DNA from: Escherichia coli
GTDB taxonomy: Bacteria > Pseudomonadota > Gammaproteobacteria > Enterobacterales > Enterobacteriaceae
DNA length: 64,000 bases
Assembly: GCF_003334355.1 (NCBI RefSeq)
Contig: NZ_QOWP01000002.1
Direction: 5' to 3' (one strand)
Shown here: positions 44,962-45,286 of the stretch, piece by piece
Layout: the number at the start of each line of letters is the position of its first letter
Numbering within the stretch: the stretch's first letter is position 1
The notes under the pieces: generated by a model
Told to the model about the DNA's origin: nothing
Databases searched by the model: none
The model's input: only the letters and a program-made list of their open reading frames with translations
Program-made: the position numbers and the translations under genes

Positions 44962-44977
44962 TTGCAGGTTCGATTCC
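44962..44977. repeat. 16-bp copy of the argW T-arm segment (TTGCAGGTTCGATTCC) inside the prophage right end
   Basis: Exact match to tRNA positions 7821-7836; with the attR core it reconstitutes the tRNA 3' half split by 293 bp carrying torI. Confidence 0.7.
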
Positions 44978-44996
44978 CTATTCGGAGATAGCACTC

Positions 44997-45197
44997 ATGC
45001 AACACGAACTACAGCCTGATTCACTGGTTGATTTGAAATTCATCATGGCCGATACTGGCTTCGGTAAAACCTTCATCTACGACCGAATTAAGTCCGGCGA
45101 CCTGCCAAAAGCCAAAGTTATCCACGGTCGAGCAAGATGGTTATATCGTGACCATTGTGAATTCAAAAATAAGCTCTTAAGCCGCGCCAATGGGTAA
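44997..45197 (+). CDS. torI: TorI-like excisionase / AlpA-family DNA-binding protein (66 aa)
   Basis: MQHELQPDSLVDLKFIMADTGFGKTFIYDRIKSGDLPKAKVIHGRARWLYRD... winged-helix excisionase fold; same position next to dsdC as torI in K-12. Confidence 0.85.
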   Translation: MQHELQPDSLVDLKFIMADTGFGKTFIYDRIKSGDLPKAKVIHGRARWLYRDHCEFKNKLLSRANG

Positions 45198-45270
45198 AAT
45201 AGCGGGTAAAATATTTCTCACATCTAAAAAACACCATTCCAATCAATCCCCTGCCGCTTCAAGTAGATGT

Positions 45271-45286
45271 CTGCAGGGGACACCAT
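45271..45286. repeat. attR core (CTGCAGGGGACACCAT)
   Basis: Exact direct repeat of the argW 3' end at 7836-7851; prophage gene content ends and K-12 core genes (dsdC) resume just beyond. Confidence 0.85.

What the first reader, a model, noticed from the sequence alone, without database searches (positions are those of the whole stretch)
44962..45286. Copy of the argW 3' half split into two pieces flanking torI at the prophage right end
The intact tRNA at attL contains ...TTGCAGGTTCGATTCC|TGCAGGGGACACCA. At the right end the first 16 nt (44962-44977) and the last 16 nt (45271-45286, the attR core) are both present as exact copies but separated by 293 bp that carries the torI-like excisionase gene. 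This looks as if the xis module were inserted into a tRNA 3'-half duplicate, or as if two integration or excision events with different crossover points left nested att remnants.
Basis: seen in the sequence. Interest (0 to 1): 0.55.

Follow-up and report, generated by a model that had tools for sequence, protein, structure and literature searches.

The report
tRNA-like motif upstream of prophage excisionase
The two tRNA-derived pieces around torI are real. One is the well-known attachment-site core of KplE1/HK620/Sf6-type phages, and the other is a short conserved tRNA T-loop look-alike that travels with the excisionase gene, so this is not a tRNA copy broken by an insertion.

Summary
Observation confirmed. 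TTGCAGGTTCGATTCC (X) occurs exactly twice in the window, in argW (7821-7836) and upstream of torI (44962-44977). CTGCAGGGGACACCAT (Y) occurs at 7836-7851 and 45271-45286. They are 293 bp apart at the right end.

Y is the published 16-nt att core of the IntS/TorI module. The same X-torI-Y layout is present in K-12 CPS-53, UTI89, free phages HK620 and Sf6, and about 1,400 complete E. coli genomes. It is therefore inherited phage DNA, not an event in this genome.

The published in vitro attR substrate (window 45174-45308) excludes X.

The phage sequence left of Y is itself a conserved core half-site: GATGTC, the inverted repeat of GACACC, around a 7-bp TGCAGGG overlap. The "exact abutment" therefore needs no insertion breakpoint.

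A new point is that the core of X (GTTCGATTCC) is invariant about 19 nt upstream of the xis start in relatives whose Xis is only 39-52% identical and whose flanks vary. It is duplicated in one phage and absent, as a clean ~25-nt indel, in others.

X contains a TorI-type site (GGTTCGAT) and the attB left half-site. It is most likely a regulatory protein-binding site. A neutral relic of an old att copy remains a serious rival. The finding is ordinary overall, with one small unexplained conserved element.

The parts
7776..7850 (+). argW, tRNA-Arg(CCT). This is the attB-bearing gene and is intact at attL.
   Evidence: ARAGORN; sequence.
7821..7836 (+). X in argW: end of the variable loop, T-stem 5' strand, T-loop and 2 nt of the T-stem 3' strand. 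It contains GGTTCGAT (7826-7833) and the inferred attB left half-site GATTCC (7831-7836).
   Evidence: The half-site assignment is inferred.
7836..7851 (+). attL core CTGCAGGGGACACCAT. Inferred 7-bp overlap TGCAGGG at 7837-7843 and right half-site GACACC at 7844-7849.
   Evidence: The 16-nt core is published for KplE1 (PMC2951348). The overlap and half-sites are inferred.
7857..7947 (+). P' arm with the five published TorI sites, placed here from the MG1655 coordinates: I1 AGTTCGCT 7857-7864, I2 AGTCCGCA 7877-7884, I3 AGTCCGTC 7920-7927, I4 GGTTCGCT 7930-7937, I5 AGATCGTT 7940-7947.
   Evidence: Coordinates and the pentamers GTTCG/GATCG/GTCCG are from PMC2951348, mapped onto the sequence.
7946..8011 (+). 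intS promoter region: -35 TTGACA at 7946-7951 and -10 TAAAAA at 7970-7975, with GGGTAAAA / TTTTACCC repeats (predicted IntS arm-type sites).
   Evidence: Sequence. Promoter hexamers as described in PMC2951348. The arm-site assignment is inferred.
8012..9169 (+). IntS-type (P4-family) tyrosine integrase.
   Evidence: tblastn: 97.6-99.7% identity to the Louie, HZ41, Sf6, HK633 and VT2phi_272 integrases. NCBIfam PRK09692 integrase domain.
44771..44938 (+). Last early-left-operon ORF (55 aa), shared with HK022, HK140, mEp213 and other lambdoid phages.
44928..44955 (+). Intrinsic terminator (hairpin plus T-run), homologous to HK022 'tL4'. Homology with HK022-type phages ends at about 44955-44959, just before X.
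44962..44977 (+). X, the phage copy: exact 16-nt copy of the argW T-arm segment. The family-wide invariant core is GTTCGATTCC (44968-44977). It contains the TorI-type octamer GGTTCGAT (44967-44974).
   Evidence: Conservation.
44984..44990 (+). GGAGATA, the conserved Shine-Dalgarno block of torI. It lies 6 nt after X and 6 nt before the ATG.
44997..45197 (+). torI / hkaC, the recombination directionality factor (excisionase).
45174..45308 (+). Region equivalent to the published 135-bp attR substrate that is sufficient for in vitro excision. It excludes X.
   Evidence: Primer sequences from PMC3509656, mapped.
45192..45211 (+). Two GGGTAAAA repeats (45192-45199 and 45204-45211), predicted IntS arm-type sites of the P arm.
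   Evidence: Sequence. The same repeats occur in relatives, as GGGTAAAA or GGGCATAA. The function is inferred.
45266..45286 (+). attR core region: phage-side half-site GATGTC (45266-45271), overlap TGCAGGG (45272-45278), GACACC (45279-45284). The published 16-nt core Y is 45271-45286.
   Evidence: PMC2951348.
45381..46322 (-). dsdC-like LysR regulator. This is host DNA immediately right of attR, as in K-12.
   Evidence: K-12 and UTI89 annotation.

Best explanation
The window holds a ~37.4-kb P22-like prophage integrated in argW by the KplE1/HK620/Sf6-type IntS/TorI recombination module.

Y (45271-45286) is the ordinary attR core left by IntS-mediated crossover. The crossover is inferred to occur in a 7-bp overlap, TGCAGGG, flanked by half-sites: GATGTC or GATTCC on the left and GACACC on the right.

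X (44962-44977) is not part of that crossover and is not half of a broken tRNA copy. It is phage DNA that belongs to the torI leader. It lies between the last intrinsic terminator of the early-left operon and the torI ribosome-binding site.

The 10-nt core of X, GTTCGATTCC, reproduces the left arm of attB (T-loop plus left half-site). It is kept invariant across divergent relatives.

Shown:
- X is inherited with the module.
- X is conserved under apparent selection.
- X lies outside the published attR substrate that supports in vitro excision.

Inferred: X is a binding site for the module's own proteins. It could bind TorI through its GTTCG-type octamer, IntS through the attB-type half-site, or both. 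Binding there would let them feed back on torI expression, which is the step that decides excision. X probably descends from an old tRNA-derived att copy.
For: 1. Identical X-torI-Y layout in HK620 and Sf6 virion genomes, K-12 CPS-53 and UTI89. 1,407 of 5,426 complete E. coli genomes cover at least 80% of the X-torI-Y query.

2. Y equals the published 16-nt core (PMC2951348).

3. The published 135-bp attR substrate for in vitro excision maps to 45174-45308, about 200 bp downstream of X.

4. GTTCGATTCC lies at a fixed distance from the xis ATG (6-nt spacer, GGAGATA, 6 nt) in several divergent relatives:
- Erwinia phages Midgardsormr38 (two tandem copies) and phiEt88 (Xis 39% identical).
- Salmonella phages Emek and g341c (51-52.5%).
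- Citrobacter, Leclercia (45%), Pantoea and Phytobacter prophages.
The flanks are variable or unalignable.
Information content is 2.0 bits at GTTCGATT versus 0.2-1.5 bits in the 12 nt to its left.
Of 120 IMG/VR matches to GTTCGATTCCCN5GGAGAT, 117 have a TorI-family xis start directly downstream, 2 more are the same E. coli leader with no ATG found in the scanned stretch, and 1 is not a TorI leader.

5. Published TorI sites are 8-bp elements with GTTCG/GATCG/GTCCG. X contains GGTTCGAT, which matches site I4 (GGTTCGCT) at 7 of 8 positions.

6. The phage side left of the core is a conserved half-site, GATGTC (G 98%, A 79%, T 96%, G 100%, T 96%, C 84% over 58 distinct flanks). It is the inverted repeat of GACACC. 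The right edge of X therefore coincides with the end of the attB half-site, and the left edge of Y with the overlap region. This explains the abutment.
Against: - No binding or expression data exist for X. The function is inferred from sequence alone.
- About 30% of distinct xis 5' regions in the family lack the motif (41 of 134). Examples are Klebsiella Chronis, Erwinia vB_EhrS_49, Enterobacter, Morganella and several Pantoea. X is therefore not essential.
- In phiEt88 the P'-arm repeats are CGATGTAACC-like rather than GTTCG-like, yet X is unchanged. X does not follow the apparent RDF specificity there.
- Leaders that are nearly identical sit in front of Xis alleles only about 45% identical (L095 versus L103). 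Part of the 'conservation' may therefore be mosaic exchange of the leader rather than long-term purifying selection.
- An isolated integrase half-site is expected to bind weakly.
Confidence: 0.5

Rival explanations
1. Neutral relic. X, perhaps with the following GGAGATA as a decayed GGGGACA, is the leftover of an older tRNA-derived att core or of a tandem or nested integration at argW. It ended up upstream of xis and now has no function. It persists by hitch-hiking and by mosaic exchange of the leader.
For: - The 10-12 nt identity to the T-arm of exactly the target tRNA is hard to get without descent from, or copying of, argW.
- Some leaders extend the tRNA match further right: GGTTCGATTCCTG in Pantoea L097, and CAGGTTCGATTCCCTG in L215 and L291.
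- xis is then flanked by two tRNA-3'-half-like direct repeats.
- The motif is present or absent as a clean ~25-nt indel.
- It is dispensable in many relatives and lies outside the published attR substrate used in vitro.
Against: - The invariant 8-10-nt core with variable flanks, across Xis proteins 39-52% identical, is not what a neutral relic should look like.
- The tandem duplicate in Midgardsormr38 has both copies intact.
- There are no arm-type repeats or other att-arm features left of X.
Confidence: 0.3
2. X is part of a CII/C1-activated 'pI' promoter that drives torI and int for lysogenisation, as annotated in the HK620 and Sf6 GenBank records. In that annotation TTGC-N5-TTGC is the activator site and GAGATA the -10.
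For: - The HK620 record annotates a promoter 'phage integration' and a 'cII protein' binding site on ATTGCCTGATTTGC..GAGATA.
- Sf6 annotates pI 'possible integrase expression promoter'.
- The same TTGCCTGATTTGC is present at window 44952-44965.
Against: - The spacing is N5, not the canonical N6.
- K-12 has TTAC in the first repeat.
- Relatives that keep GTTCGATTCC lack the TTGC repeats: Midgardsormr38, phiEt88, Emek, Phytobacter.
- No sigma-70-like promoter is found between the terminator and torI.
- The invariant part is GTTCGATT, which would be promoter spacer in this model.
Confidence: 0.1
3. The torI cassette was inserted into a contiguous tRNA 3'-half copy (X.Y) in the phage attP.
For: X and Y abut exactly in argW, overlapping by 1 nt.
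Against: - The sequence directly left of Y is a conserved core half-site that partly matches the T-loop (TTnGATGTC versus TTCGATTCC). Y therefore already has its own left neighbour and is not a breakpoint.
- The right edge of X varies between relatives: CCC, TTTCC, CCTG.
- No phage record has X.Y contiguous.
- Xis-attP-int relatives without X have the same attP.
Confidence: 0.05
4. X is the true crossover core, as the CUS-3 GenBank record labels it ('attL core' and 'attR core'). Alternatively, X supports an alternative excision by recombination between the two X copies.
For: CP000711 starts at X inside argW and ends at X upstream of torI, and labels both as att cores.
Against: - Genomes 100% identical to the CUS-3 right end continue from X into torI and the Y core before dsdC.
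- Free phage genomes carry X, torI and Y together.
- Kapi1 and KplE1 att sites were determined as Y.
- No complete E. coli genome has the predicted argW-5'-X-torI deletion product: 0 of 5,426.
Confidence: 0.02
5. Chance resemblance to a generic T-loop.
For: GGTTCGAnTCC is a very common tRNA motif. The 10-mer alone reaches 2 matches in 3 of 100 shuffles of the window.
Against: - The 16-mer is exact: 0.01 expected, and 0 of 100 shuffles reach 2 matches.
- The motif recurs at the same position in many independent relatives.
Confidence: 0.01

Closest known systems
KplE1 (CPS-53) recombination module of E. coli K-12 (IntS, TorI, attL/attR; Panis, Mejean, Ansaldi)
   Same: - Same target gene (argW) and same 16-nt core, CTGCAGGGGACACCAT.
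- TorI is identical over all 66 residues to HK620 HkaC and Sf6 gp18, which PMC3509656 reports as 100% identical to K-12 TorI.
- intS lies next to attL and torI next to attR.
- Same GTTCG-type TorI sites.
- Same X 16-mer 19 nt upstream of torI.
   Different: - K-12 carries a 10.2-kb defective remnant with different genes upstream of X (yfdT side), and TTAC instead of TTGC 10 nt before X.
- The window carries a full-length ~37-kb P22-like prophage.
- X itself is not mentioned in any of the KplE1 texts I could read.
Phages HK620 and Sf6 (attP between hkaC/gene 18 and int)
   Same: - 97-99% identical over the X-torI-Y segment.
- They show that X, torI and Y are all phage DNA in the order terminator, X, xis, attP core, int.
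   Different: They are in the unintegrated form. Their records annotate the X region only as a predicted pI promoter / cII site (HK620) or as 'boundary sequence bsq2' (Sf6), not as a tRNA-like element.
Phage CUS-3 GenBank record CP000711
   Same: Same prophage type at argW, and the same X repeats.
   Different: The record treats X as the att core and therefore stops before torI and the real attR core. Genomes identical to its right end show torI and Y following X.
Lambda-type att sites (C-O-C' core with arm-type Int sites and Xis sites)
   Same: - Inferred inverted half-sites around a 7-bp overlap.
- Arm-type repeats on both arms.
- RDF sites on one arm.
   Different: - attP lies between xis and int, so the two genes end up at opposite prophage ends.
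- RDF sites are on attL rather than attR (PMC2951348).
- No lambda counterpart is known to me for an attB-arm copy in the xis leader (own knowledge).

Membership tests
KplE1/HK620/Sf6-type IntS/TorI recombination module | 16-nt core CTGCAGGGGACACCAT duplicated at both prophage ends, the left copy being the 3' end of argW. | tested here: met
   The core is as published.
KplE1/HK620/Sf6-type IntS/TorI recombination module | P4-family integrase immediately downstream of attL, transcribed away from the tRNA. | tested here: met
   ORF 8012-9169. 97.6-99.7% identical to the Louie, HZ41, Sf6, HK633 and VT2phi_272 integrases. PRK09692 domain.
KplE1/HK620/Sf6-type IntS/TorI recombination module | TorI-type RDF gene next to attR, at the opposite prophage end from int. 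| tested here: met
   44997-45197 is identical over all 66 residues to HK620 HkaC and Sf6 gp18 and matches PDB 1Z4H at E = 6.6e-43.
KplE1/HK620/Sf6-type IntS/TorI recombination module | Five GTTCG/GTCCG/GATCG TorI sites and the intS promoter overlapping attL. | tested here: met
   The sequences are present at 7857-7947 and 7946-7975, where the published coordinates place them. Protein binding was not tested.
KplE1/HK620/Sf6-type IntS/TorI recombination module | Competence for IntS/TorI-dependent excision. | not testable with these tools
   Requires an in vivo or in vitro recombination assay.
att core / crossover site (applied to X) | Lies within the DNA needed for recombination and contains the overlap region shared by attP and attB. 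| tested here: not met
   - The published attR substrate maps to 45174-45308 and excludes X.
- The sequence after X (CTATTCG) differs from the overlap TGCAGGG.
- There is no X-mediated deletion product in 5,426 genomes.
tRNA gene fragment / pseudo-tRNA (applied to 44962-45286) | Detectable as a tRNA or tRNA part by structure-aware models; contiguous tRNA-derived sequence. | tested here: not met
   ARAGORN finds only argW. There is no tRNA hit in Rfam at E <= 10. Only 16 + 16 nt match.
TorI (RDF) binding site (applied to X) | 8-bp element containing GTTCG, GATCG or GTCCG. | tested here: met
   GGTTCGAT at 44967-44974 matches published site I4 (GGTTCGCT) at 7 of 8 positions.
TorI (RDF) binding site (applied to X) | Bound or protected by TorI. 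| not testable with these tools
   Requires EMSA or footprinting. Caveat: in phiEt88, X does not follow the changed P'-arm repeats.
CII-activated pI-type promoter (applied to X region) | TTGC-N6-TTGC activator site straddling a weak -35, with a usable -10, conserved among relatives. | tested here: inconclusive
   - The site is TTGC-N5-TTGC in E. coli phages only.
- It is not conserved in other motif-bearing relatives.
- There is no sigma-70-like match.
- Activator-dependent promoters can escape such scans.
Structured cis-regulatory RNA in the xis leader | Conserved secondary structure with covariation. | tested here: not met
   RNAalifold on 14 diverse leaders predicts 0 pairs. Rfam gives only sub-threshold chance-level hits.

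The most novel reading that the evidence does not exclude
The torI leader carries a deliberate mimic of the left arm of attB (the T-loop GTTCG plus the GATTCC half-site, followed 7 nt later by GAGATA). TorI and/or IntS bind it to throttle RDF expression. On this reading, the same protein-DNA recognition that finds the tRNA gene also sets the excision switch. This 'tRNA-arm operator' would be conserved across the enterobacterial IntS/TorI modules and has not been described.
Probability: 0.3. Interest if true: 0.55.

Novelty: new member of a known kind. Interest (0 to 1): 0.3.

Why it matters
[quoted passage not shown] The authors add that this expression still needs to be understood (PMC2951348).

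A short, invariant, tRNA-arm-like element lying 19 nt upstream of the RDF start codon is an obvious candidate cis-element for that control. It can be tested with a few mutants.

There is also a practical point. The X repeat is a trap for prophage boundary calling. The CUS-3 reference record appears to have been cut at X and so lacks its excisionase gene and true attR.

Otherwise the locus is a textbook instance of a well-studied module.

Tried and rejected
- **RNA element:** RNAalifold on 14 diverse leaders gave no consensus pairs. Rfam gave only sub-threshold hits, with STnc130 at 26.7 bits against a gathering score of 55, driven by the terminator.
- **Local promoter:** there is no sigma-70-like site between the terminator and torI.
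- **Covariation test (does X follow the target tRNA?):**
  - Every relative found targets the same tRNA end, TGCAGGGGAC.
  - Integrases drop from 61% to 40% identity, and those distant ones have other architectures (YeP5, AchV4, phi297).
  - phiEt88-like relatives with variant cores (L318 TTGCAGGGGGCGCCA, L319 CTGTAGGGGACACCA) lack the motif.
  - The test could therefore not be done.
- **X.Y-contiguous attP:** none was found in the phage collection.
- **X-by-X deletion product (argW-5'-X-torI):** none in 5,426 genomes.
- **Population variation within E. coli:** too little divergence to be informative, with only 36 distinct sequences.
- **First IMG/VR scan with the TorI alignment:** it returned only 100%-identical E. 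coli copies.
- **Pseudo-core idea (GATTCC-N7-GAGATA as a full Int site):** weakened, because GGAGATA also occurs in leaders that lack X. I kept it only as speculation.
- **Literature:** a full-text search for the motif found nothing relevant. The key papers (JBC 2007 site mapping, Virology 2010, PNAS 2013 Rho/torI, J Bacteriol 2007 CUS-3, JMB 2001 HK620) are not held. I cannot exclude that X is mentioned there.
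Full report
**1. Observation**

The window has one tRNA gene, argW (tRNA-Arg CCT), at 7776-7850 on the + strand.

- The 16-mer TTGCAGGTTCGATTCC (called X here) matches only at 7821-7836, inside argW, and at 44962-44977. This holds even with 2 mismatches allowed. Chance expectation is 0.01, and 0 of 100 shuffles reach two matches.
- TGCAGGGGACACCA matches only at 7837-7850 and 45272-45285. With its shared flanking C and T, the repeat is CTGCAGGGGACACCAT (called Y) at 7836-7851 and 45271-45286.
- In the tRNA, X and Y abut and share one C. 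At the right end, 293 bp lie between them.
- That interval holds a 66-aa ORF at 44997-45197. It is identical over all 66 residues to HK620 HkaC and Sf6 gp18, which PMC3509656 reports as 100% identical to TorI. It matches the solved TorI structure 1Z4H over its full length at E = 6.6e-43.

**2. What the locus is**

- Directly right of argW lies a P4-family integrase (8012-9169), 97.6-99.7% identical to the Louie, HZ41, Sf6, HK633 and VT2phi_272 integrases.
- Right of Y lie dsdC and dsdX-like host genes, as in K-12.
- The region 7851-45271 is therefore a ~37.4-kb prophage.
- Its ends form the KplE1/HK620/Sf6-type recombination module described by Panis, Mejean and Ansaldi:
  - a 16-nt core, CTGCAGGGGACACCAT, at both ends;
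  - intS at attL and torI at attR;
  - five TorI sites and the intS promoter overlapping attL (PMC2951348).
- Using the published MG1655 coordinates, I placed the five TorI sites on the window: AGTTCGCT 7857-7864, AGTCCGCA 7877-7884, AGTCCGTC 7920-7927, GGTTCGCT 7930-7937 and AGATCGTT 7940-7947.

**3. Is X-torI-Y special to this genome? No.**

- The same order (terminator, X, SD, torI, arm repeats, Y) is found, 96-99% identical, in the virion genomes of HK620 and Sf6. There Y is the annotated attP core and int follows it.
- It is also in K-12 CPS-53 and UTI89.
- 1,407 of 5,426 complete E. coli genomes cover at least 80% of a 371-nt X-torI-Y query.
- X is therefore phage DNA on the P-arm side of attP, inherited with the module.

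**4. Is X part of the recombination site?**

- The published in vitro excision assay uses a 135-bp attR made with primers attR-IHF2 and attR-XbaI (PMC3509656).
- Those primers map to window 45174-45193 and 45284-45308, which is exactly 135 bp.
- That substrate starts at the 3' end of torI, about 200 bp downstream of X. X is therefore not needed for excisive recombination in vitro.
- No complete E. coli genome shows the product expected from recombination between the two X copies (argW-5'-X-torI): 0 of 5,426.

**5. Why do X and Y abut in the tRNA?**

I collected 58 distinct phage-side sequences left of TGCAGGGG from attP and attR sites of relatives.

- They are not random. The last six positions are conserved as GATGTC (G 98%, A 79%, T 96%, G 100%, T 96%, C 84%), preceded by TTn.
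- GATGTC is the inverted repeat of GACACC (reverse complement GGTGTC), which follows TGCAGGG.
- This is the canonical tyrosine-recombinase core: half-site, 7-bp overlap, half-site. It is my inference and was not tested.
- In attB the left half-site is GATTCC, which is the end of X.
- The left edge of the published identity block is therefore the left edge of the overlap region. The right edge of X is the end of the attB half-site.
- Any copy of the attB left arm would "abut" Y, so no insertion breakpoint is needed.
- Y also has its own genuine left neighbour, which partly resembles the T-loop (TTnGATGTC versus TTCGATTCC). A torI cassette dropped into a contiguous X.Y block would not leave that.
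- No phage record has X.Y contiguous. All full-coverage hits are two pieces about 445 bp apart.

**6. What X looks like across relatives**

I collected TorI homologues from three sources: the phage collection, one genome per species, and IMG/VR.

- Every relative has the att core TGCAGGGGAC, so all of them target argW.
- In many relatives, a motif with the invariant core GTTCGATT(C/T)CC occupies the same position as X: motif, 6 nt, GGAGATA, 5-6 nt, ATG. Examples:
  - Erwinia phage Midgardsormr38, with two tandem copies, CAGGTTCGATTCCCgtCAGGTTCGATTCCC.
  - Erwinia phage phiEt88 (Xis 39% identical).
  - Salmonella phages Emek and g341c (51-52.5%).
  - Leclercia (45%), Citrobacter, Phytobacter and Pantoea prophages.
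- The left flank varies (ttgCAG-, ccCT-, tCA-, cAA-, gcC-), and so does the 6-nt spacer.
- In a 14-sequence alignment, GTTCGATT is invariant, as conserved as the best codons of xis.
- Over 93 motif-bearing distinct 5' regions, it carries 2.0 bits per position, against 0.2-1.5 bits in the 12 nt to its left.
- The pattern GTTCGATTCCCN5GGAGAT matched 120 places in IMG/VR. In 117 a TorI-family xis start lies directly downstream. Two more are the same E. coli leader with no ATG found in the scanned stretch. One precedes an unrelated ORF.
- The 16-nt identity in E. coli is therefore the long end of a distribution around a conserved 10-11-mer.
- About 30% of distinct xis 5' regions lack the motif (41 of 134). 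In several of these the difference looks like a clean ~25-nt indel. With the motif: tttttGCCTGG[cttccaggttcgatttccaaaccGG]AGATG. Without it: ttttttattGCCTGGAGATA.

**7. What might recognise it**

- Published TorI sites are 8-bp elements containing GTTCG, GATCG or GTCCG. X contains GGTTCGAT, which matches site I4 at 7 of 8 positions.
- X also contains GATTCC, the attB left half-site that IntS must recognise during integration (inference).
- X lies 6 nt from the torI Shine-Dalgarno sequence. It is just downstream of an intrinsic terminator homologous to HK022 tL4.
- For this module, excision control is said to rest on RDF expression.
- My preferred reading is that X is a protein-binding (operator-like) site for TorI and/or IntS acting on torI expression.

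Caveats:
- There are no binding data.
- The motif is dispensable in many relatives.
- phiEt88 keeps X although its P'-arm repeats are not GTTCG-like, and its closer relatives lack X.
- Nearly identical leaders precede Xis alleles only about 45% identical. Mosaic exchange therefore contributes to the apparent conservation.

**8. Alternatives that were tested**

- **RNA element:** no consensus structure and no Rfam family.
- **Local sigma-70 promoter:** none found.
- **CII-dependent pI promoter,** as annotated in HK620 and Sf6: TTGC-N5-TTGC exists only in the E. coli phages. It is mutated in K-12 and not conserved where the 10-mer is.
- **Neutral relic of an old att copy:** still plausible for the origin. 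Some leaders extend the tRNA match to the right: GGTTCGATTCCTG, and CAGGTTCGATTCCCTG with one extra C. However, a neutral relic does not predict an invariant core with variable flanks.
- **X as the real core,** as the CUS-3 record labels it: contradicted.

**9. Comparison with what is known, and novelty**

- The locus is a new member of a thoroughly studied module.
- Y, torI, intS and the att arms are as published.
- X is not discussed in any text I could read. In GenBank it appears only as "promoter / cII site" (HK620), inside "boundary sequence bsq2" (Sf6), or, wrongly, as "att core" (CUS-3).
- Several key subscription papers are not held, so prior description cannot be ruled out.
- The one small novel point is the family-wide conservation of a tRNA-arm-like 10-mer in the RDF leader.

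**10. Verdict**

- The insertion or split-tRNA mechanism is not supported.
- An ancient att-derived origin is possible.
- The most likely present role is a cis-regulatory protein-binding site. This is inferred, at about 50%.
- Overall interest is low to moderate.

Noticed in passing
L004 1-16 and L001 1762-1777 (CP000711 positions 1-16 and 40192-40207); compare L314 1563-1895: The CUS-3 GenBank record starts at X inside argW and ends at X upstream of torI, and labels both 'att core'. Genomes 100% identical over 878 bp of the CUS-3 right end (UTI89, IHE3034, NU14 and others) continue from X into torI and the real attR core. The reference record therefore appears to lack its excisionase gene and true attR.
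   Followed up: yes
L314 1871-1885 (UTI89 chromosome): The attR core in UTI89 reads CTGCAGGGACACCAT, with three G instead of four. This is a 1-nt deletion inside the inferred 7-bp overlap region. It might cripple excision of that prophage.
   Followed up: no
L006 1955-1990 (Erwinia phage Midgardsormr38): The tRNA-arm-like motif is tandemly duplicated (CAGGTTCGATTCCCgtCAGGTTCGATTCCC) upstream of xis, and both copies are intact.
   Followed up: partly
L160, L163, L169, L173, L150-L154, L105 versus L155, L159, L167 (about 50 nt upstream of xis): Presence or absence of the motif looks like a clean ~25-nt indel flanked by GG microhomology, inside an otherwise homologous leader (terminator, TTGCC, GGAGATA, ATG).
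   Followed up: partly
L095 (JAEWEJ010000341.1, labelled 'MAG: Actinomycetes bacterium'): A 5-kb contig of an actinomycete MAG carries an enterobacterial-type TorI (85% identical), the leader motif and the argW-type att core. This is probably a mis-binned or contaminant contig.
   Followed up: no
L105 3190-3460 (Enterobacter sp. R1(2018)): xis, att core, P' arm and int are contiguous in a bacterial genome contig. This is the attP-like, unintegrated order. It suggests a tandem or episomal copy, or an assembly of excised phage DNA.
   Followed up: no
window 45190-45339 (+): An hkaB / Sf6 gene 17-like small ORF (49 aa) starts at the torI stop and runs across the attR core into host DNA. Its C-terminus therefore changes on integration. 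It matches no protein family and may not be a real gene.
   Followed up: partly
window 7826-7833 versus 7857-7864 and 7877-7884: The T-loop of argW itself carries a TorI-type octamer (GGTTCGAT), 31 nt upstream of published TorI site I1 and 51 nt upstream of I2. That is roughly helically in phase. The tRNA gene could contribute a sixth RDF site at attL.
   Followed up: no
L318 about 2090-2110 and L319 about 2085-2100: Two distant module relatives have variant cores: TTGCAGGGGGCGCCA and CTGTAGGGGACACCA. These may be the tRNA-Arg(CCT) 3' ends of other genera. Neither has the leader motif.
   Followed up: no
window 44700-44751 (+): Two further terminator-like hairpins lie in tandem just upstream of the 55-aa ORF. 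Three intrinsic-terminator-like sites therefore lie within 260 bp ahead of torI (5 terminator-like sites found versus 0.7 expected).
   Followed up: no
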